Positions 4,242-10,732 of a DNA stretch of 64,000 bases are shown one piece after another. The notes under the pieces are model-generated. The model was not told where the DNA came from and searched no databases. It saw nothing but the letters and a program-made list of their open reading frames with translations. This DNA comes from Bacteroidia bacterium. GTDB taxonomy: Bacteria > Bacteroidota > Bacteroidia > NS11-12g > UBA9320. Each line of letters begins with the position of its first letter. The stretch's first letter is position 1. Position numbers and translations under genes: made by a program. The stretch lies in contig CBDCFW010000001.1 of the NCBI GenBank assembly GCA_965216465.1, positions 160,001-224,000 of the forward strand, written 5' to 3'.

Positions 4242-5185
4242 TAGGCACGGATGTGTCTGTTGCAGCTAAGCTTTTGCAAAAAGGTGAAGTTGTAGCCATT
4301 CCCACCGAAACAGTTTATGGTTTAGGGGCAAATGCTCTAGACCCAAGCGCTGTCACTAAGATTTATCAAACCAAGGAACGTCCTTCGTTCAATCCATTAA
4401 TTCTTCATCTTCCAAATTTAGAAGCAGCAAGGCCTTATATTCAGGATGTTCATCCTATGGCTCAACAATTGGCTGACCGATTTTGGCCAGGCAGCTTGAG
4501 CTTGCTATTTCCAAAAACAGACATGGTTCCTGATATTGTTACTGCTGGATTGCCCAATGTGGTTATACGCGTCCCAAATCATGAATTAACGTTGCAATTA
4601 TTGCAGGAAGTAAAATTTCCGGTCGCAGCACCAAGTGCCAATATATCGAATACCGTTAGTCCAACTTCCGCAGAGCGGGTTCAACAGAACTTAGGTGATA
4701 AGATAGAGTACATTTTAGATGGCGGACCATGTACGGTTGGAGTGGAAAGTACAATCGTTTCCTTTGTTGATGATGAAGTTACGATTTTGCGTGAAGGAGG
4801 AATTAGCAAGGAAGAAATCGAAGCGGAGTTAGGAATTTCGGTATCGTATAAGAAGGCAAAAGAGGTTACTGCACCGGGCCAGCTTAAACGTCACTATGCG
4901 ACTCGAAAGCCGCTTTATGTTGTTGACGACATCGAAGAGGCCATGCTCAGCTTTAGGGATAAGAAGGTTTCGGCCATGTTGTTTGAAACCAAGCAGATTA
5001 AAGCCAATAAGGTATACCTCCTCTCCCACAACTACAATCTATCGGAAATAGCCATCAATTTATTTGAGATGATGAATAAGGCAGACGAAGACAATAGTGA
5101 AATCATCTTAGTAGAACGTATCAAAGAAGAGGGAATTGGAAAGGCTATCGCAGATCGTTTAAGAAGGGCGAGCACTGAGCTCTAA
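4238..5185 (+). CDS. tsaC: L-threonylcarbamoyladenylate synthase (Sua5/TsaC)
   Basis: PTETVYGLGA, KERPSFNPLI, APSAN, GVESTI, APGQ..HYA Sua5 linker. Confidence 0.93.
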   Translation: MIGTDVSVAAKLLQKGEVVAIPTETVYGLGANALDPSAVTKIYQTKERPSFNPLILHLPNLEAARPYIQDVHPMAQQLADRFWPGSLSLLFPKTDMVPDIVTAGLPNVVIRVPNHELTLQLLQEVKFPVAAPSANISNTVSPTSAERVQQNLGDKIEYILDGGPCTVGVESTIVSFVDDEVTILREGGISKEEIEAELGISVSYKKAKEVTAPGQLKRHYATRKPLYVVDDIEEAMLSFRDKKVSAMLFETKQIKANKVYLLSHNYNLSEIAINLFEMMNKADEDNSEIILVERIKEEGIGKAIADRLRRASTEL

Positions 5186-5256
5186 CACACTCTAAACTCA
5201 AACTCTTGCTCAAAACTCTTGCTCAAAACTCTTGCTCACACTCAAACCTTAACCCC
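5186..5256. repeat. Degenerate hexamer / 13-mer tandem repeat (CAAAACTCTTGCT x~3)
   Basis: CAAACTCTTGCT CAAAACTCTTGCT CAAAACTCTTGCT CACACTCAAAC read directly after the tsaC stop. Confidence 0.85.
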
Positions 5257-5397
5257 CTAAATATTCCAAATCAGAATTTCATCTGACTCGTTGTAGGAGT
5301 CTTCTGTAGAGGAGTAGTCGTCTGGATTGATGATTTTCATCATGCAAGTGCTTTCAGGATTTTCTGTAGCTTGCTTTATGAGTTCGTAGTATGACAT
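5257..5397 (-). CDS. 46-aa acidic small protein (MSYYELIKQATENPESTCMMKIINPDDYSSTEDSYNESDEILIWNI)
   Basis: ATG-to-TAG ORF below the track cutoff, with a canonical TAGCTTTG -7 element ~21 nt upstream. Confidence 0.6.
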   Translation of the reverse strand: MSYYELIKQATENPESTCMMKIINPDDYSSTEDSYNESDEILIWNI

Positions 5398-5418
5398 AGT
5401 GAATTAAAATCGTTGCTT

Positions 5419-5426
5419 CAAAGCTA
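5419..5426 (-). promoter_or_regulatory. -7 promoter element TAGCTTTG for the small ORF 5257-5397
   Basis: Exact TAnnTTTG on the minus strand. Confidence 0.6.
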
Positions 5427-5562
5427 GCGAGTTATGAAATGAACTTATACATCATTTTCTACACATAATGTGTATAGAATTGGATAGCGGACGGTTTGAT
5501 GAAGTCTTCTTACTTCGTCGTAATGCCTTAATCAACCAATTTAAGCTCTCTCGAAAAGGACA

Positions 5563-5597
5563 TAGAGTTGAGTGTGAGCAAGAGAGTGAGAGTACGA
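5563..5597. repeat. GA-rich hexamer repeat; contains a 17-bp perfect inverted copy of 5229-5245
   Basis: TTGAGTGTGAGCAAGAG (5568-5584) is the reverse complement of CTCTTGCTCACACTCAA (5229-5245). Confidence 0.8.
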
Positions 5598-5607
5598 ATT
5601 CTACCTA

Positions 5608-5635
5608 TTCAAGGTCTCTTGGAGAGGACCTTGAA
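5608..5635. repeat. REP-like palindrome
   Basis: TTCAAGGTC-TCTTGGAGAG-GACCTTGAA, 9-bp perfect stem with no U-tract. Confidence 0.5.
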
Positions 5636-5719
5636 GAGTCAAATGCCTACTTATTAAACCTACATGGTAAAATCATTCACCAACCTTTGCTATATTCGAT
5701 TCCTGAACTTCTTTAATAA

Positions 5720-5905
5720 ATGGAAAACCTCTACTTCATCTTCAAAGAAACCACTGCAATATTCATTATTTGGGTAGTTGCAGAGCTTATTTTCATGTAC
5801 AAGGACATTGCTCCAAAACAACGATGGAGGTACCGAACTTGGGTACTGGCTAGTGCAGTTTTTATTGGAGTTGCTGTTTATTTGGTTTGGAGGTCGAATT
5901 TCTAG
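5720..5905 (+). CDS. Small two-TM membrane protein, unknown function
   Basis: 61-aa ORF with two hydrophobic segments and a basic loop; A-rich context before ATG. Confidence 0.55.
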   Translation: MENLYFIFKETTAIFIIWVVAELIFMYKDIAPKQRWRYRTWVLASAVFIGVAVYLVWRSNF

Positions 5906-5960
5906 GTACCAAGTAATTAAGATCCCTAATGTAGACCTTTGATTAGGATTTCGTTGCATC

Positions 5961-6227
5961 CTAGTAACTCAACAGTATTCCGCAAATGGTGAAAACACCA
6001 AAAGCAACCCAAAACAAGATTGAAAGAAATCTCACATGCTTAGGTTGTATGGCTAAATTTAAAGGATTTAATGCGTACCATTTTGAATAGTGAGTTTTCA
6101 TTAAAAAACCTTCATCCTTAAAATCACTTCTATACAAATAGATATAATGCAAAATATATTTGAGAGCAAACGCACCAAAAGCAGTTAGTCCAGAGTAAAA
6201 TGATATGTCATATATTAAGGGTTGCAT
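5961..6227 (-). CDS. Small two-TM membrane protein, unknown function
   Basis: ORF with two hydrophobic helices; ATG 6227 preferred over the track TTG 6266. Confidence 0.55.
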   Translation of the reverse strand: MQPLIYDISFYSGLTAFGAFALKYILHYIYLYRSDFKDEGFLMKTHYSKWYALNPLNLAIQPKHVRFLSILFWVAFGVFTICGILLSY

Positions 6228-6330
6228 CGAATTTTCAATAGAGCAATTATTCACCAAAATAAACAATTTGAATTGAAACCAGCATAGTGCACCTTAAATG
6301 AGCTGAATCAAACAAGTGTACCAATATTTG

Positions 6331-6392
6331 CAGTCAGTGGGAGATTGAGGGCGAATGCAGATGATTCTACCTGCACTTCGCATTATAAGTTG
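6331..6392 (-). repeat. Structured repeat E4 (degenerate copy)
   Basis: Plus strand CAGTCAGTGGGAGATTGAGGGCGAATGCAGAT-GATTCT-ACCTGCACTTCGC; homologous to E1-E3. Confidence 0.85.
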
Positions 6393-6400
6393 TTTACTAT

Positions 6401-7534
6401 TTATCTAAACTGATCTCTAATTGCAGCAATTGATTTCCCAGAGTTTGAGATTATAAGATACCTTACATCAGACACTATTCTTTTAAACTCCTCGTCATCT
6501 GACAACTCATTTACCGAATCCAAAAAGTCAATTAACTCTATTTCTATGTCTTCTTGATAAAGTATCTGACTATTGTCTTCACTTAAATACTTCTTCAGAA
6601 TGGGAATCGCAATCTTGCTGAGTTCTACTGCTTTCATTCCATTTCTCACACTCAGTCCTTCCTCTTTTATTATTGAGCTCAAATAGTAGTAGTCATTAAT
6701 ATACGACTTGCCAAGTTCAGAAGTTGACAATTCTGCTCTGATATCATAGAAAGTAGACTTGTCAATAATCTTCCCTGACACTTTTTCAGCCTCATTAATG
6801 CCACAAGTTCTTCCATAGCAATCAAAAGTCCCATCTCCATTCGACATGCAGTTCATATCCGGTGCCTCAAAACAAGGGTATTGACAGCCTTCTTTGTCCT
6901 TCTTAGGCTTGTCTGGAACATCAGGAGCTTTTTTAGACTTTAAGTAATTAGCACCTAAAACTTGGTGCAGAAAAACTGCATGATCAGGGACTTCAAATTC
7001 ATAATTACTCCGCAATGAAACTGCAGAAAAGAAGCGTTGATCTAAGTCCATTTGTCTCGCGAAAACTACAAAATCGTTAGTTGAGATTGCGTCAACCTCG
7101 ATTGACTTAAATCGATATGAAAGCTCGTTGCAATCAAATCCATCAACATACAGTCTCCCTTCTTTCAGATAAAAATACAATGCAGCTCTACTGGAATCCA
7201 GATTTAATTTCTCGCTTTTATCAAGTCGATTATTGAAGTATAAGACAATTGAGATTGGAATATTCTCGTCATTCTTCTGTATAAGATTGAACAAGTCCAT
7301 CTTTTGAATAATTGAATCTTGTCCAGTATAGTGAAATGCTAGATGAAAATTATTGTTAGTGTTGCTCTTGTTTGCATAGTACACTTGAAAGGAAATGGCA
7401 GCGAGATCATCACCAAAAAGTGCTGCTTGTTTATCAGGTGAAAACGTGTCGCAAGAAGCACATGTCAATCGATTACTATCCTTACAACTGAAAAGGAGAA
7501 AAAGGGCTAAAAATGCTAATGTTATTTTTTTCAT
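6401..7534 (-). CDS. Hypothetical lipoprotein with a Cys-rich segment and a CFI-box-CTERM-like helical tail
   Basis: Lipobox LFSC; CxxC; CQYPC...C...C...C cluster followed by FYDIRAELSTSELGKSYINDYYYLS. Confidence 0.7.
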   Translation of the reverse strand: MKKITLAFLALFLLFSCKDSNRLTCASCDTFSPDKQAALFGDDLAAISFQVYYANKSNTNNNFHLAFHYTGQDSIIQKMDLFNLIQKNDENIPISIVLYFNNRLDKSEKLNLDSSRAALYFYLKEGRLYVDGFDCNELSYRFKSIEVDAISTNDFVVFARQMDLDQRFFSAVSLRSNYEFEVPDHAVFLHQVLGANYLKSKKAPDVPDKPKKDKEGCQYPCFEAPDMNCMSNGDGTFDCYGRTCGINEAEKVSGKIIDKSTFYDIRAELSTSELGKSYINDYYYLSSIIKEEGLSVRNGMKAVELSKIAIPILKKYLSEDNSQILYQEDIEIELIDFLDSVNELSDDEEFKRIVSDVRYLIISNSGKSIAAIRDQFR

Positions 7535-7598
7535 GTCTTCAAAATGAAAACAACAAGCTCACACATATTGTAGAAATTCTACTACTTCATTAGTTGTT

Positions 7599-7652
7599 TT
7601 AATAAAAATCTTTAACTCCCTTATATACTCTAAGCTTTTCAAAATCAAACAT
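7599..7652 (-). pseudogene. Truncated third four-helix-bundle copy (MFDFEKLRVYKGVKDFY*)
   Basis: Same leader and first codons as the intact copies; TAA after 17 codons. Confidence 0.85.
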
Positions 7653-7667
7653 GTATATCAAAATTCA

Positions 7668-7728
7668 CAGTCAGTGCGAGAATGAGGGCGAATGCAGGTA
7701 GAAGCACCCGTGCTTCACACTCTAACTG
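7668..7728 (-). repeat. Structured repeat E3
   Basis: CAGTCAGTGCGAGAATGAGGGCGA-ATGCAGGTAGAAGCACCCGTGC-TTCACACTCTAACTG. Confidence 0.92.
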
Positions 7729-7732
7729 CATT

Positions 7733-8080
7733 CTACTTCTCCAACTTCCGTATTAGAGCATATAACATCTTAGACAGCTCTTCTGCTTTCTGATAGAGTG
7801 TAGAGTACTCTTTTATATTGAGTTTTGATTTATCTTTAAGTATGTCGCAAATAGCAACACATTCAAATACTGAACTTCTAGAAATAACATAGAAATTTCT
7901 TTTATCACGATTCGTAAATCGTCCTGTACCTTCAGCTATGTTTAAAGCGATACTAAGTGAAGCCCGCTTGAGCTGATTGGTAATTACTGAATCTGGTTTA
8001 CAGTTGTCTAATAGTTTCTCAATTTCAAAATGAAATTCTTTTGCTCGCTTATAGACTGTAAGTTTTTCAAAATCAAACAT
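7733..8080 (-). CDS. Four-helix-bundle protein (23S rRNA IVP / TIGR02436 family), copy 2
   Basis: FEKLxVY, QLKRASLSIALNIAEGTGR, SRSSVFEC, EELSKMLYALI family motifs. Confidence 0.93.
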   Translation of the reverse strand: MFDFEKLTVYKRAKEFHFEIEKLLDNCKPDSVITNQLKRASLSIALNIAEGTGRFTNRDKRNFYVISRSSVFECVAICDILKDKSKLNIKEYSTLYQKAEELSKMLYALIRKLEK

Positions 8081-8095
8081 GCATATCAAAATTCA

Positions 8096-8156
8096 CAGCC
8101 AGTGCGAGAATGAGGGCGAATACGGGTAGAATCACCCGCGCTTCACACTCTAACTG
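8096..8156 (-). repeat. Structured repeat E2
   Basis: CAGCCAGTGCGAGAATGAGGGCGA-ATACGGGTAGAATCACCCGCGC-TTCACACTCTAACTG; 428 bp from E3. Confidence 0.92.
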
Positions 8157-8157
8157 T

Positions 8158-8508
8158 TTACTTCTTCTCCAACTTCCGTATTAGAGCATATAACATCTTA
8201 GACAGCTCTTCTGCTTTCTGATAGAGTGTAGAGTACTCTTTTATATTGAGTTTTGATTTATCTTTAAGTATATCACAAATAGCAACACATTCAAATACTG
8301 AACTTCTAGAAATAACATAGAAATTTCTTTTATCACGATTCGTAAATCGTCCTGTACCTTCAGCTATATTTAAAGCGATACTAAGTGAAGCCCGCTTGAG
8401 CTGATTGGTAATTACTGAATCTGGTTTACAGTTGTCTAATAGTTTCTCAATTTCAAAATGAAATTCTTTTGCACGCCTATAGACTGAAAGCTTTTCAAAA
8501 TCAAACAT
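8158..8508 (-). CDS. Four-helix-bundle protein (23S rRNA IVP / TIGR02436 family), copy 1
   Basis: Same motifs as copy 2; about 8 nt differences counted by eye. Confidence 0.93.
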   Translation of the reverse strand: MFDFEKLSVYRRAKEFHFEIEKLLDNCKPDSVITNQLKRASLSIALNIAEGTGRFTNRDKRNFYVISRSSVFECVAICDILKDKSKLNIKEYSTLYQKAEELSKMLYALIRKLEKK

Positions 8509-8523
8509 GCATATCAAAATTCA

Positions 8524-8584
8524 CAGTCAGTGCGAGAATGAGGGCGAGTGTGAGTAAGAACACTCACACTTCACACTCTAACTG
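8524..8584 (-). repeat. Structured repeat E1
   Basis: CAGTCAGTGCGAGAATGAGGGCGA-GTGTGAGTAAGAACACTCACAC-TTCACACTCTAACTG; 428 bp from E2. Confidence 0.92.
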
Positions 8585-8587
8585 TTA

Positions 8588-8607
8588 TGGTACCCAGGGT
8601 CGGGCTC
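8588..8607 (-). repeat. Duplicated tRNA-Leu 3' end (att-like), ending in CCA
   Basis: GTACCCAGGGTCGGGCTC (8590-8607) is identical to 8703-8720; the minus strand reads GAGCCCGACCCTGGGTACCA. Confidence 0.9.
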
Positions 8608-8666
8608 CCCAACGTTGCAGTTGGGATAAACTTCTCGCCCGACTTTAGAATTCAAATTTTCGCCAT

Positions 8667-8696
8667 AAAAAAAGCTGACCTAGAAGATCAGCTTTT
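8667..8696 (-). terminator. Rho-independent terminator after tRNA-Leu
   Basis: Minus strand AAAAGCTGATC-TTCTA-GGTCAGC followed by T7. Confidence 0.75.
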
Positions 8697-8703
8697 CATT
8701 TTG

Positions 8704-8785
8704 TACCCAGGGTCGGGCTCGAACCGACACGTCTTGCGACATTGGTGTTTGAGACCAACGCGTCTACCAATTCCGCCACCTGGGC
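8704..8785 (-). tRNA. tRNA-Leu(CAA)
   Basis: GCCCAGG acceptor, GGCGGAATTGGTAGACGC D arm, TTGGT-CTCAAAC-ACCAA anticodon arm, long variable arm, GTCGGTTCGAGCCCGAC T arm; CCA not encoded. Confidence 0.97.
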
Positions 8786-8864
8786 ATGAAAGGACGTTTA
8801 CGTCCTTGAGCATACAGACCTAAGCGTCTGCACCGATTCAAGACCTACAACCAGGTTTCTCAAA

Positions 8865-9392
8865 TCAGGCTGCGAATGTATTTAGACTTTCTCTTATTCG
8901 CAACACATACTTTAACTTTAAGTATGTTTCTTTAACTTTTTCTAAAATTTCTTTTCGAGCTTCACTTCCAACTTCCAACTTATCAGCCTCTCCCGCCCTA
9001 TTCGCTAACTCCAAATTCAATTCTTCTTCCAACTGCCTTACCTCCATCAATACTTCATCTTGCTTCGCAGCATCAGGATCCATTTTTAAATCCATAATAT
9101 CCTCATTGATGTCCATCATCTCCATTAAAAAGCTTTGCGGAATAGCATTCTGTGCCTCTTGAAGCACCTCATTAAGTTTTAGAATGTAATTCACTCTCGA
9201 GCTGAACTTGCTTAACGCCTTGAATGCCGAATTATTGGTACTCGTCGTTTCTAAAGCCTGCTCATACTTCGCTTCATCATCAATAACAAAATCAGGGTGA
9301 TGCTCTTTACTAATCTTAAAGAATAGCTGTTTTAACTCAGCTTCATCCAAGAAGAATTGCTCTTCTATACCATAAAACTGAAAGTAGTTCAT
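8865..9392 (-). CDS. hscB: Fe-S cluster co-chaperone HscB
   Basis: MNYFQFYG, J-domain HPD motif, FLMEMMDINE. Confidence 0.9.
   Translation of the reverse strand: MNYFQFYGIEEQFFLDEAELKQLFFKISKEHHPDFVIDDEAKYEQALETTSTNNSAFKALSKFSSRVNYILKLNEVLQEAQNAIPQSFLMEMMDINEDIMDLKMDPDAAKQDEVLMEVRQLEEELNLELANRAGEADKLEVGSEARKEILEKVKETYLKLKYVLRIRESLNTFAA
8873..8880 (-). promoter_or_regulatory. Probable tRNA promoter (-7 variant TACATTCG) embedded in the last codons of hscB
   Basis: TACATTCGCAGCC has the same TAnnTTCG-CAGCC form seen before rseP (10753-10760) and ffh (26463-26470). Confidence 0.55.
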
Positions 9393-10732
9393 CAACTAAA
9401 AAACGCGTTTAAGCTATCAATAAACAGTATAAAGCCCATTAAAGCAAAAAGTAGAATCATTCCAACGATTTGGAAGTAGTACATTACTTTCTCAGGCAAT
9501 GGCTTTCTTCTAACCATCTCTATCAATAAGAACAATACGTGTCCTCCATCTAAAGCCGGAATAGGTAACAAGTTCATGAAAGCTAAGACAAATGATAGCA
9601 TTCCTGTAATCTGCCAGAATCGATGCCAGTTCCATTCCGCTCCATAAATGGTAGCAATTGTAATCGGCCCGCTTAATGTTTTGGTTGGATTAAGCTTTCC
9701 TTTAATCATCTCACCAAAAGCTCTAATGTTTAAGTTCAAGGTGTTAATTCCTCTCCTGGTTCCTTCTGGGAACGATTCTAAAAAGCCAAACTTCGTGGTA
9801 ATGGTTTTACCTGCAAATTCAGAAACATCATCCATCAATATTCCAACTCTACCATTGGTATCTAGTTTGTGCTTTATCTCAATTGATTCGTTGTCTCTGA
9901 TTATACCTATAGTTACTTCTTCACCTTTGTGATTTTGAAGCTCATCCTTCATGTTATTGTGAAAAGGAGTAGCAACATCATTAACCGATACAATTTGGTC
10001 GCCTTTTTCAAAGCCAGAACTCTTAGCCTCTTCAGTTTGTGCTTCATATACAATAGACTTAATACGCTTGTCGTATAAGCCACGGCCTTTGCTTTCCATA
10101 ACCTTAGGCTTTATACTATCTGCCAGAATGAAGTCACGAATTTGACCATTATTTTCTACGGTATAAGTTAGATCTTCATCTCCTGAAAAGAAAAGTTCAG
10201 GCTTACTAAATTCACGGTATTTTTCAAGCTTCTCACCGTTCAATGCGATAAGTTTATCTCCTTCTTTGAATCCTGCTTGAACTCCTAATTCGGTAGGAAC
10301 AATTCCATTCACATTAGCTACTTCTGTTGGTAACCATGTATCTCCATAGTGCCATAGTGATAAGGCGAAAATTAATATTCCTAAAAAGAAATTAACCGTT
10401 ACCCCACCAATCATAACAATCAAACGCTGCCATGCTGGCTTGCTTCTAAATTCATAATCTTCAGGTTCTGAAGCCATTTGCTCTTTGTCAAGGCTTTCAT
10501 CTATCATTCCTGAAATTTTAACATAGCCTCCAAGTGGCAACCATCCAATACCCCATTCGGTGTCGTTTACCTTCTTGCTGAAAAGCTTTACTCCCCAAGC
10601 ATCGAAGAAGATGTAGAATTTCTCAACACGTATACCAAAAGTACGTGCTGCGATGTAATGCCCCCATTCATGCAACGATACTAAAATAGCTAACGCTAGT
10701 ATCAGTTGCCCTGCCATGATTAATGTTCCCAT
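9392..10732 (-). CDS. rseP: RIP metalloprotease RseP
   Basis: HEWGH, LGGYVKISGM, PDZ domains, NLLPIPALDGGH. Confidence 0.95.
   Translation of the reverse strand: MGTLIMAGQLILALAILVSLHEWGHYIAARTFGIRVEKFYIFFDAWGVKLFSKKVNDTEWGIGWLPLGGYVKISGMIDESLDKEQMASEPEDYEFRSKPAWQRLIVMIGGVTVNFFLGILIFALSLWHYGDTWLPTEVANVNGIVPTELGVQAGFKEGDKLIALNGEKLEKYREFSKPELFFSGDEDLTYTVENNGQIRDFILADSIKPKVMESKGRGLYDKRIKSIVYEAQTEEAKSSGFEKGDQIVSVNDVATPFHNNMKDELQNHKGEEVTIGIIRDNESIEIKHKLDTNGRVGILMDDVSEFAGKTITTKFGFLESFPEGTRRGINTLNLNIRAFGEMIKGKLNPTKTLSGPITIATIYGAEWNWHRFWQITGMLSFVLAFMNLLPIPALDGGHVLFLLIEMVRRKPLPEKVMYYFQIVGMILLFALMGFILFIDSLNAFFS

What the first reader, a model, noticed from the sequence alone, without database searches (positions are those of the whole stretch)
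7668..8584. Repeat cores are hypervariable yet keep base-pairing, with wobble pairs favouring the sense strand
Seen: the flanks (CAGYCAGTGCGAGAATGAGGGCGA / TTCACACTCTAACTG) are nearly invariant in E1-E3, while the 22-nt core differs at 10/22 positions (E1 vs E2) and 4/22 (E2 vs E3); the adjacent CDS copies differ by only ~2%. Cores stay hairpins with 6-nt loops: GTGTGAGT/ACTCACAC, CGGGT/ACCCG, and TGCAGAT/ACCTGCA in E4. Many plus-strand A-C mismatches become G-U pairs on the minus (mRNA) strand, including the outer CAGUUA/UGRCUG stem. The 5' arm can pair in two registers (with TCGCCCTC or TCGCAC). Inference: selection acts on a strand-specific RNA or ssDNA structure ending 15 nt before the start codon, such as a leader, processing site or protein-binding site.
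Basis: partly seen in the sequence, partly recalled or inferred. Interest (0 to 1): 0.75.

Follow-up and report, generated by a model that had tools for sequence, protein, structure and literature searches.

The report
Hairpin spacers flanking tRNA-linked gene cassettes
A 61-base hairpin that precedes each copy of a small duplicated gene beside a tRNA gene belongs to a widespread family of stem-forming flanks resembling those of ribosomal-RNA intervening sequences; its variable tip is real, but the claimed strand bias does not hold in relatives.

Summary
The repeats exist as described. A 61-nt element occurs four times (E1 7668-7728, E2 8096-8156, E3 8524-8584, degenerate E4 6331-6391), only here in the genome. 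Each has two near-invariant arms around a 21-nt tip that differs at 4 or 10 positions yet stays a hairpin.

E1-E3 separate tandem copies of a PF05635/TIGR02436 gene, the 23S rRNA intervening-sequence (S23p, Avd-like) family. The array lies in a 3.4-kb insertion downstream of tRNA-Leu.

- In 44 of 63 related loci this gene subfamily follows a same-strand tRNA or tmRNA gene, against 0 of 30 loci of other PF05635 genes.
- The spacer in relatives holds the same kind of hairpin, usually a longer form ending in a T run.
- The relatives' apical helix shows clear covariation; the four window copies alone do not reach significance.
- The sense-strand wobble bias holds for E1-E3, which share their arms, but reverses in relatives (5 sense, 12 antisense, 1 tie).
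- The "2%" CDS divergence hides a mosaic.

Best reading (about 0.45): an IVS-like RNA stem, a processing or insulating hairpin in read-through transcripts, with an unconstrained tip. Rivals are a DNA recombination junction, a by-product of palindrome mutation, and a protein-binding array. It is a new variant of a known kind.

The parts
8703..8785 (-). tRNA-Leu(CAA), the stable RNA gene upstream of the array
   Evidence: ARAGORN; Rfam tRNA 55 bits. The same gene follows the HscB-like gene in 10 of 10 same-genus loci.
8667..8702 (-). A-tract, stem and T-tract hairpin directly after the tRNA, read as an ordinary tRNA terminator
   Evidence: Read. Rfam noise hits to terminator-like sRNAs only. The simple scan did not call it.
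8588..8643 (-). Motif X: a T-arm-like stem plus the 3' acceptor strand of tRNA-Leu, with the T-loop replaced by a conserved GAGAAGTTTATCC-type segment and a variable hairpin. E3 follows it directly.
   Evidence: 18-nt exact repeat of the tRNA 3' end (D9). The same motif with other tRNA or tmRNA tails occurs in 6 other loci: L019, L047 (two copies), L049, L073 (two copies), L087, L122. No Rfam match.
8524..8584 (-). E3: GU-rich arm 8569-8584, tip hairpin 8548-8568 (perfect 8-9 bp stem), CA-rich arm 8524-8547
   Evidence: RNA fold -27.2 kcal/mol, z = -4.48 on the sense strand.
8158..8508 (-). Gene B, 116 aa, PF05635 / TIGR02436 four-helix-bundle (S23p, Avd-like) protein
   Evidence: Pfam E = 6e-25; NCBIfam TIGR02436 E = 9e-24.
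8096..8156 (-). E2: the same arms, tip differing from E3 at 10 of 21 positions
   Evidence: Fold -25.0 kcal/mol, z = -3.51.
7733..8080 (-). Gene A, 115 aa, PF05635; 3 synonymous differences from gene B over the 288-nt body
   Evidence: Pfam E = 2e-25.
7668..7728 (-). E1: the same arms. The tip's left arm matches inverted E4 and its right arm matches E2, so it looks chimeric.
   Evidence: inverted repeat I15. Fold -24.0 kcal/mol, z = -2.89.
7601..7653 (-). Truncated 5' remnant of a third PF05635 gene (17 codons then a stop), followed by an unrelated 377-aa ORF (6401-7534)
   Evidence: Alignment A1. No Pfam or NCBIfam hit for the 377-aa ORF.
6331..6391 (-). E4: degenerate copy with an inverted tip (loop reverse-complemented), followed by a decayed leader and gene start (about 6264-6316) and a 101-aa ORF
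   Evidence: D1, I14, I15; (2 mismatches); A1. Fold -14.7 kcal/mol, z = -2.18.
5190..5262 (-). Tandem GU-rich arm-type repeats abutting the stop of the convergent TsaC/Sua5-like gene; the far end of the 3.4-kb insertion
   Evidence: I2, I7, I11. Relatives have TsaC 88-128 nt from the tRNA.
5568..5597 (-). CA-rich arm-type sequence preceded by a loop-like GGTAGAAT motif; a fifth, decayed element
   Evidence: I2 is 17 nt, 100% complementary to 5229-5245.

Best explanation
E1-E4 are short-form members of a family of hairpin elements that accompany one subfamily of PF05635 (S23p, 'intervening-sequence protein') genes. These genes sit immediately downstream of tRNA and tmRNA genes in Bacteroidota and some candidate-phyla bacteria.

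Proposed mechanism, inferred and not shown: the gene has no clear promoter of its own in relatives, so it is expressed from read-through of the stable RNA gene. The GU-rich arm and the CA-rich arm pair in the RNA. They can pair locally, giving the 61-nt hairpin, or across an ORF with the arm of the next repeat, giving an IVS-like stem-loop. This stem acts as the terminal stem of a 23S rRNA intervening sequence does: as a double-stranded processing or insulating site, most likely for RNase III. It would separate the ORF RNA from the tRNA and from the next cistron and cap the mRNA end 15 nt before the AUG.

Only the arms are constrained. The apical 21 nt need only close the stem, so they drift and are also remodelled by palindrome-driven DNA events such as loop inversion and arm exchange. 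That gives the variable-but-paired tip.

Because the whole element is repeated on both sides of the gene, unequal recombination makes tandem arrays and leaves solo elements.
For: Shown.
- Gene identity: PF05635 and TIGR02436.
- Stable-RNA linkage: 44 of 63 subfamily loci have a same-strand tRNA or tmRNA ending within 700 nt upstream, 33 within 260 nt. The mix is 17 tmRNA, 11 Leu, 7 Arg, 3 Met, 2 Ser and one each of Lys, Ala, Val, Thr. None of 30 loci of other PF05635 genes has one (Fisher p = 1e-11).
- The window elements align with the relatives' spacers, GU-rich arm to GU-rich arm and CA-rich arm to CA-rich arm (A2).
- The relatives' apical helix covaries (0 of 500 shuffles reach the % paired, the further pair types or the covariation score; slid controls are 34-54% paired).
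- In relatives the CA-rich arm runs to within about 10-25 nt of the ATG with no conserved promoter-like motif (read).
- All four window copies fold better than shuffles on the sense strand.
- A 501-nt fold pairs the GU-rich arm of E3 with the CA-rich arm of E2 across gene B (z = -3.0).
- 19 of 30 other PF05635 genes are bracketed by lineage-specific inverted periodic arms, against 2.9% of cross-locus control pairs.
- The genome encodes RNase III.

From the literature (PMC4990558, abstract and passages): the Coxiella IVS is 428 nt and carries an S23p ORF. It has a 28-bp terminal stem cut in its middle by RNase III. Tandem heptamers upstream of the ORF vary in number between strains.
Against: - There are no RNA data: the runs that hold the locus are contigs only.
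- The window's own tRNA-Leu now has an ordinary terminator and motif X between it and E3, so read-through into the array is uncertain here.
- A near-consensus Bacteroidetes -7 motif (consensus recalled, not from a call) lies in the 15-nt leader and might make the genes independent of upstream transcription.
- No family-wide sense-strand preference.
- Arm-to-arm covariation in this subfamily is weak, and RNAalifold gave no consensus structure.
- Covariation among the four window copies is not significant.
- The window's short form lacks the T run of the relatives' long form (0 terminator-like sites, and direct reading), so the function may differ between forms.
Confidence: 0.45

Rival explanations
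1. The element is a DNA-level junction. It would be the recombination site, or simply the repeat substrate, through which PF05635 cassettes are inserted, duplicated and deleted next to stable RNA genes. The hairpin would matter as folded or cruciform DNA, or not at all. Tips would differ because crossovers or conversion tracts end inside them.
For: - The whole element is repeated directly on both sides of the gene in 18 of 65 loci, scoring at or above the 99th percentile of cross-locus controls (alignments).
- The element overlaps the stop codon.
- Tandem genes follow in several loci.
- The closest relative has a solo element and no gene at the same tRNA-Leu locus.
- Some loci hold arrays of arms alone (L040, L052, L055, L081).
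- E4's tip is an inverted copy of the E1/E2 tip (I14, I15).
- E1's tip combines an E4-type left arm (7 of 7) with an E2-type right arm (6 of 7), by direct reading.
- Motif X looks like an integration scar in a tRNA T-loop.
- The mosaic divergence implies gene conversion.
Against: - No recombinase lies nearby: the genome's 4 tyrosine-recombinase hits are all on other contigs.
- A site-specific recombinase would need conserved core sequences, but the centre is the variable part.
- Arm-type sequences cluster next to the PF05635 gene and are rare elsewhere in the loci, which is unlike a general cassette system.
- Other PF05635 genes sit at conserved operon positions with rapidly changing but complementary arms, which fits selection on pairing better than a recombination site.
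- Contigs of 4 runs show no alternative junctions (weak, because contigs drop rare variants).
Confidence: 0.25
2. The tip has no function and is under no selection for pairing. Quasi-palindromes are corrected to palindromes, and their loops inverted, by intramolecular template switching during replication. That process changes several bases at once and automatically yields 'compensatory' pairs.
For: - E3's tip is a perfect palindrome, and its left arm repeats the adjacent GU-rich arm motif (direct reading).
- E4's loop is the reverse complement of E2's loop (I14).
- Covariation in the four copies is not significant.
- In other arrays the upstream and downstream copies are near-identical or differ mainly outside the hairpin (L017, L034, L075). 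Hypervariable tips are therefore not a family trait.
- 12 of the 14 tip differences are transitions, which is compatible with ordinary mutation.
Against: - The apical helix covaries across distantly related genomes.
- The arms are far more conserved than the adjacent coding sequence (1 of 55 against 4-9 of 54), so at least the arms are under constraint.
- Mutational templating explains the origin of paired changes, but not their retention across phyla.
Confidence: 0.15
3. The periodic arms (GAG every 6 nt, and the complement) are a binding array for a protein: the multimeric PF05635 product itself in autoregulation, or an unknown factor. The hairpin would be incidental.
For: - Hexamer periodicity gives several equivalent registers.
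- Other PF05635 genes carry arms of 6-7-nt repeats of quite different sequence.
- The Coxiella IVS has heptamer repeats before the ORF.
- Avd, a homologue, is said to bind nucleic acid (recalled, not from a call).
Against: - The repeat sequence differs between lineages while the protein is conserved.
- What is kept is the complementarity of the two arms.
- No binding data exist. Complex prediction was not used, because it does not handle nucleic-acid partners.
Confidence: 0.1

Closest known systems
23S rRNA intervening sequences carrying an S23p (PF05635) ORF, e.g. Coxiella burnetii and Leptospira helix-45 IVS
   Same: - The ORF family is the same.
- Complementary arms can close a stem around a roughly 0.4-kb ORF-bearing unit. 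The repeat period here is 428 bp, and the Coxiella IVS is 428 nt; this may be coincidence.
- Short periodic repeats lie next to the ORF start, and that region is the most changeable part.
- The element is selfish-looking, horizontally acquired and of unknown benefit.
   Different: - It is not inside an rRNA: Rfam found no rRNA in 5000-10000. It lies downstream of a tRNA gene.
- The two arms are adjacent and form a local hairpin before the ORF, as well as bracketing it.
- The units are tandemly repeated.
- RNase III cleavage is untested here.
Integron attC sites and gene-cassette arrays
   Same: - Short promoterless ORFs are separated by imperfect palindromes with conserved outer parts and a variable central hairpin.
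- The site overlaps the stop codon.
- Strand-specific folding was proposed.
   Different: - The R''/R' consensus (recalled) is met only approximately and at the wrong ends.
- There is no integron integrase: the 4 tyrosine recombinases are all on other contigs.
- In relatives the element accompanies only PF05635 genes, not diverse cassettes.
Genomic islands and cis-mobilizable elements integrated in tRNA or tmRNA genes
   Same: - A 3.4-kb insertion lies downstream of tRNA-Leu relative to genus relatives.
- There is an 18-nt direct repeat of the tRNA 3' end.
- Targets include tmRNA.
   Different: - The insertion carries no integrase.
- The tRNA 3' repeat lies only 95 nt from the tRNA, with the cassettes beyond it.
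- The repeat sits in a T-arm whose loop carries a conserved ~35-nt insert (motif X). I could not match this to any described att site; no literature search was made for it.
Intercistronic stem-loops and REP/BIME-type elements, and intrinsic terminators
   Same: - A stable hairpin lies between cistrons.
- The long form in relatives has an A-tract, a stem and a T-tract directly after the tRNA or tmRNA.
   Different: - Only 4 copies exist in the genome.
- The short form here has no T run.
- A third complementary segment follows the terminator in the long form.

Membership tests
S23p-type intervening sequence (IVS) element | ORF of the PF05635 / S23p family | tested here: met
   Pfam E = 2e-25 and 6e-25, above the 33.8-bit cut-off; TIGR02436 at 83.8 bits against a cut-off of 24.
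S23p-type intervening sequence (IVS) element | Complementary terminal arms that close an extended stem around the ORF | tested here: met
   Each ORF lies between a CA-rich and a GU-rich arm. The 501-nt fold closes the GU-rich arm of E3 on the CA-rich arm of E2 across gene B. The stem is shorter (about 14 pairs with bulges) than the 28 bp reported for Coxiella.
S23p-type intervening sequence (IVS) element | Inserted in a hairpin loop of 23S (or 16S) rRNA | tested here: not met
   No rRNA match in 5000-10000. The neighbour is tRNA-Leu.
S23p-type intervening sequence (IVS) element | Excised from the precursor by RNase III | not testable with these tools
   An RNase III gene is present. No raw RNA reads were available.
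Integron attC site | Inverse core RYYYAAC at the 5' end and core GTTRRRY at the 3' end of the site (consensus recalled) | tested here: not met
   Read. Only near-matches with one mismatch each exist, and they lie at the opposite ends from those expected relative to the ORF.
Integron attC site | Integron integrase and attI next to the array; diverse cassettes | tested here: not met
   The 4 PF00589 hits are on contigs C4, C5 and C6, none on C1. In relatives the arms cluster at the PF05635 gene only.
Diversity-generating retroelement (Avd + RT + TR/VR) | Reverse transcriptase gene | tested here: not met
   0 RVT_1 matches in a genome rated 100% complete.
Diversity-generating retroelement (Avd + RT + TR/VR) | Differences between repeat copies confined to adenines of a template | tested here: not met
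   The 14 tip differences involve all four bases; 12 are transitions (read).
Intrinsic (rho-independent) terminator | GC-rich stem followed by a T run | tested here: not met
   No T run follows E1-E4; 0 terminator-like sites in 6200-8900. By reading A2, most of the 18 aligned relatives do have a run of 4 or more T after the apical hairpin.
Dispersed REP/MITE-type repeat | Many copies scattered over the genome | tested here: not met
   4 copies, all within 2.3 kb. Other GAG-periodic hits at C1:120-121 kb lie in His-Thr repeat coding sequence; those at C6:427 kb were not inspected.
Any Rfam family | Covariance-model match | tested here: not met
   Only tRNA passes. The best other hits are 14-27 bits, far below gathering scores.

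The most novel reading that the evidence does not exclude
S23p/PF05635 'intervening sequences' would not be an rRNA curiosity. They would be a general class of small selfish ORF cassettes that live in the transcripts of stable RNA genes and operons, each carrying its own double-stranded excision stem. One subfamily has specialised on the 3' flank of tRNA and tmRNA genes across Bacteroidota and candidate-phyla bacteria. It would arrive through a previously undescribed T-loop-targeted integration that leaves motif X, then multiply and vanish by recombination between its hairpin flanks.
Probability: 0.3. Interest if true: 0.7.

Novelty: new variant of a known kind. Interest (0 to 1): 0.5.

Why it matters
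PF05635 is present in 96 of 121 sampled genomes of this phylum, often in many copies. It is still described as functionally uncharacterised in the papers I read (passages; abstract and passages).

Three results turn a 30-year-old rRNA oddity into a testable general model: an ORF embedded in a host transcript and released or insulated by a double-stranded stem.
- One subfamily is tied to tRNA and tmRNA genes.
- Its flanks are the same kind of stem-forming arms as in rRNA intervening sequences.
- Other subfamilies sit inside operons between lineage-specific complementary arms.

The work also yields a candidate new integration scar in tRNA T-loops (motif X).

For annotation, it explains the recurrent 'four helix bundle protein' genes beside tRNA genes, and it cautions that 'compensatory' changes in tandem palindromes can be mutational.

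Tried and rejected
Searches that found nothing useful.
- Rfam, both strands: nothing for E or X. The GEBRO hit of 14 bits against a 285-bit gathering score is noise.
- DNA search with one 501-nt unit in 40 relatives (24 same-genus, 16 same-order): 0 matches.
- Exact degenerate pattern of the CA-rich arm in metagenome contigs: 1 hit, inside a GC-rich coding region, with no tRNA and no element. I treat it as chance.
- The same pattern in viral contigs: 0. The protein in viral contigs: 0 confirmed of 35 pattern hits.
- Literature, 4 full-text searches: no paper found that describes PF05635 genes beside tRNA or tmRNA genes. This covers that library only, and supplements were closed.

Analyses that gave weak or null results.
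- RNAalifold on the 22-sequence family alignment: no consensus pairs. The periodic arms allow several registers.
- Own-versus-cross arm complementarity in the subfamily: weak. Before that count I dropped L041, E3 and E1 as near-duplicates.

Hypotheses rejected.
- DGR: no reverse transcriptase.
- Integron: see the membership test.
- Genome-wide dispersed repeat: the other GAG-periodic sites at C1:120-121 kb are His-Thr repeat coding sequence; the C6:427 kb sites were not inspected.

Sequencing runs.
- The look-up of sequencing runs found 4 runs of one study, possibly the source sample, that hold the locus. All other runs hold only a small share.
- Read laying used contigs only. In run X1, records 2, 4 and 6 cover E1, E2 and E3 with 0 other letters. 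No joints were found. The three A>G differences in X2 equal the gene A/B paralogue differences. This gives no information on RNA ends or rare variants.

Not attempted or not available.
- The simple sigma-70 and terminator scan is uninformative for this phylum.
- No structure prediction, complex prediction or protein-database searches were run. The family assignment was already clear and they would not bear on the element.
Full report
ANATOMY. Coding runs on the minus strand here, so the order below follows decreasing coordinates.
- tRNA-Leu(CAA), 8785-8703.
- An ordinary A-tract, stem and T-tract hairpin, 8702-8667.
- A 56-nt tRNA-3'-end-like segment, motif X, 8643-8588.
- E3 (8584-8524), then gene B (8508-8158).
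- E2 (8156-8096), then gene A (8080-7733).
- E1 (7728-7668), then a 17-codon remnant of a third gene copy (7653-7601).
- An unrelated 377-aa ORF.
- E4 (6391-6331) with a decayed leader and gene start, then a 101-aa ORF.
- Further decayed arm-type repeats down to 5190, where the convergent TsaC/Sua5-like gene ends.

[quoted passage not shown] Each E has three parts: a 16-nt GU-rich arm, a 21-nt tip and a 24-nt CA-rich arm. It ends 15 nt before the ATG.

CHECK OF THE OBSERVATION. The arm motif occurs four times in the window, and 0 of 100 shuffles gave four matches. These four are the only real copies in the 3.23-Mb genome: of 7 hits with up to 3 mismatches, 3 lack the rest of the element.

- The tips differ at 10 of 21 positions (E3/E2) and 4 of 21 (E1/E2).
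- Arms plus leader differ at 1 of 55 in each comparison.

The '2%' CDS divergence is a mosaic.
- The 288-nt gene body differs at 3 synonymous sites.
- The first 54 nt of the CDS differ at 4 (gene A vs gene B) and 9 (remnant vs gene A).
- So the E1/E2 tip is no more diverged than its neighbourhood (p = 1.0). Only the E3/E2 tip stands out (p = 2e-4).
- What is really unusual is how conserved the arms are within a diverged segment, together with a homogenised gene body.

On one common register the tip helix is 90.6% paired and 3 of 8 pairs changed on both sides. With four sequences, 76 of 500 shuffles do as well on that count and 21 of 500 on the covariation score. MFE folds use partly different tip pairings in E1 and E2.

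STRAND BIAS. For the named structure the sense strand has 15 G-U cells and the antisense strand 4. The sense strand also folds better against shuffles in all four copies: z = -4.5, -3.5, -2.9 and -2.2 against -3.1, -2.0, -1.1 and -0.7.

E1-E3 share their arms, so the independent evidence is about 8 columns against 3 by my count from the pair table (p = 0.23). E4's MFE is lower on the antisense strand.

In 18 aligned relatives the sense strand is more stable in 5, the antisense in 12, with 1 tie. Over 34 whole spacers the split is 12, 21 and 1. The bias is therefore a property of this one arm pair and not of the family.

WHERE THE LOCUS CAME FROM. No DNA match to the unit was found in 40 relatives.

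In 10 of 10 same-genus loci the HscB-like gene is followed by tRNA-Leu(CAA). In three of them (L123, L125, L126) the convergent TsaC gene ends 88-128 nt after the tRNA. In the window that gap is 3.5 kb. Window 5186-8607 is therefore an insertion.

The closest relative (L122) has the tRNA, a terminator, motif X and one long-form element, but no PF05635 gene. This is a solo element.

THE GENE SUBFAMILY IS TIED TO STABLE RNA GENES. A scan of 185,579 species genomes gave 76 loci with relatives of 40-88% identity. They come from Bacteroidota, a few candidate-phyla bacteria and one Ignavibacteria genome.

Of 63 loci with a full ORF and at least 700 nt upstream, 44 have a same-strand tRNA or tmRNA ending within 700 nt, and 33 within 260 nt. 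The mix is 17 tmRNA, 11 Leu, 7 Arg, 3 Met, 2 Ser and one each of Lys, Ala, Val, Thr (first seen).

As a control, I took the 30 best-scoring PF05635 loci from an even sample of 121 genomes of the phylum, of which 96 have the family. None of the 30 has an upstream same-strand tRNA or tmRNA in the 1.5 kb held. The window genome's other 51 tRNA and tmRNA genes have ordinary terminators without such arms.

THE ELEMENT FAMILY. In relatives the spacer starts within a few bases of the stable RNA's 3' end, typically with AAAACAG. Next comes a GU-rich arm built of GAG every 6 nt (GAGTGTGAG or GAGCAAGAG types). Then follows an apical part, then a CA-rich arm (CTCACACTC type) that runs to about 10-25 nt from the ATG.

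Most relatives have a long form. The apical part contains a second complementary segment and a T run, so the first hairpin looks like the tRNA's intrinsic terminator and the CA-rich arm is a third complementary segment. The window copies align arm to arm with these and are a short form without the T run (A2).

The relatives' apical helix covaries.
- 83.6% paired against 68.6 ± 2.2 in shuffles (0 of 500 reach it).
- 7 of 11 pairs with changes on both sides (13 of 500).
- 23 further pair types against 15.7 (0 of 500).
- Slid controls are 34-54% paired.

Two results go the other way. RNAalifold gave no consensus on the sequence alignment. A locus's GU-rich arm also pairs only marginally better with its own CA-rich arm than with other loci's arms (21.1 vs 19.0, p = 0.04, driven by L031).

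CASSETTE BEHAVIOUR.
- In 18 of 65 loci the whole element is repeated directly upstream and downstream of the gene, overlapping the stop codon.
- A second gene start follows within 200 nt in 3 of the 65 loci. L017 and L047 also show one in the alignments.
- Some loci carry runs of one arm type alone (L040, L052, L055, L081).
- In most other arrays the flanking copies are nearly identical, or differ mainly outside the hairpin (L017, L034, L075). A hypervariable tip is not a general trait.
- In the window, E4's tip is an inverted copy of the E1/E2 tip: 14-15-nt inverted matches I14 and I15, with the loop reverse-complemented.
- E1 joins an E4-type left arm to an E2-type right arm. E3 is a perfect palindrome whose left arm repeats the neighbouring arm motif.
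- These are the marks of palindrome-driven DNA events or of conversion tracts ending in the tip. They can produce paired changes without selection.

MOTIF X. Window 8643-8588 is a T-arm plus acceptor 3' strand identical to the tRNA's 3' end over 18 nt. Its T-loop holds a conserved GAGAAGTTTATCC-type segment, a variable hairpin and GGRA.

The same construction occurs in 6 other loci: L019, L047 (two copies), L049, L073 (two copies), L087 and L122. Its stem and tail match the local tRNA-Lys, tRNA-Met, tmRNA or tRNA-Leu. It is mostly followed at once by an element. It has no Rfam match.

It looks like the scar of integration into the T-loop that displaced an older tRNA 3' end together with its cassettes. 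The genome's four tyrosine recombinases are all on other contigs. I could not take this further.

LINK TO KNOWN INTERVENING SEQUENCES. Of the 30 control PF05635 genes, 19 are bracketed by inverted arms made of 6-7-nt repeats that are specific to each lineage, against 2.9% of cross-locus pairs. Several sit at the same operon position in different genera.

The Coxiella burnetii IVS is described as follows (PMC4990558, abstract and passages).
- It is a 428-nt selfish element with an S23p ORF.
- A 28-bp stem of terminal inverted repeats is cut in its middle by RNase III.
- Tandem heptamers before the ORF vary in number between strains.

The window's arrays have the same ingredients. A 501-nt fold closes the GU-rich arm of E3 on the CA-rich arm of E2 around gene B. 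The genome has RNase III and no reverse transcriptase, so the protein is not part of a DGR.

MECHANISM. Shown:
- the anatomy;
- the family link and the stable-RNA linkage;
- conserved arms and a variable but paired tip;
- covariation of the apical helix in relatives;
- flanking direct repeats and the solo element.

Inferred: the element works as RNA, as the terminal stem of an IVS does, and serves as an RNase III-type processing or insulating stem in read-through transcripts. The tip is unconstrained (confidence 0.45).

The main rival is a DNA recombination or duplication junction (0.25). A purely mutational palindrome (0.15) and a protein-binding array (0.10) are not excluded. No RNA evidence could be obtained: the runs holding the locus are contigs, and they show the three elements unchanged.

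NOVELTY. Elements with an S23p ORF and stem-forming ends are known from rRNA. I found no description of a tRNA/tmRNA-linked subfamily, of its hairpin junctions or of motif X (searches; passages read; supplements closed). I rate it a new variant of a known kind.

The finding as worded is moderately interesting.

Noticed in passing
window 8588-8643 (- strand); also L019:3406-3482, L047:2814-2890 and 5799-5875, L049:3432-3508, L073:1768-1941, L087:2822-2898, L122:2214-2290: Motif X is a tRNA or tmRNA T-arm plus 3' acceptor strand. Its T-loop carries a conserved ~13-nt segment, a variable hairpin and GGRA. The stem covaries with the local tRNA. It has no 5' half of a tRNA and no Rfam match. It may be a T-loop integration scar or an undescribed structured element.
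   Followed up: partly
window 5186-8607: A 3.4-kb insertion lies between tRNA-Leu and the convergent TsaC/Sua5-like gene, compared with three genus relatives where the gap is 88-128 nt. It carries the cassettes, a 377-aa lipoprotein-like ORF (6401-7534) and a 101-aa membrane-like ORF (5961-6266). Neither ORF has a Pfam or NCBIfam hit, and each is preceded by an element plus a decayed PF05635 gene start.
   Followed up: partly
L091-L120 (30 loci from the phylum sample): Other PF05635 genes are not next to tRNAs. In 19 of 30 they are bracketed by lineage-specific inverted arms of 6-7-nt repeats. Several sit at the same intergenic position of conserved operons, for example before a thiolase-like gene in L091, L092, L100 and L113.
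   Followed up: partly
own genome, downstream of several tRNA genes, e.g. C3:148778 (Arg), C3:155738 (His), C3:254876 (Ser), C3:364916 (Pro), C6:530104 (Val), C6:908714 (Ser), C6:1039173 (Pro): After the ordinary tRNA terminator comes a second palindrome whose loop holds AAGCTCGCTT. It is followed by an A run and a segment complementary to the terminator, so the whole forms a large composite palindrome.
   Followed up: no
own genome C6:445784-447434: A dense array of about 19 tRNA genes lies within 1.7 kb, separate from the housekeeping tRNA genes. It may be a mobile or phage-derived tRNA array.
   Followed up: no
L040, L052, L055, L068, L081 (downstream of the PF05635 gene): Tandem runs of one arm type alone (GU-rich or CA-rich, period about 30-37 nt) occur without intervening genes.
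   Followed up: no
own genome C1:120580-121700: Two adjacent paralogous ORFs (230 aa, and at least 136 aa, the second cut by the end of the region shown) have His-Thr repeats near the N-terminus. Their DNA mimics the GAG-periodic arm motif on the opposite strand. They are unrelated to the element.
   Followed up: yes
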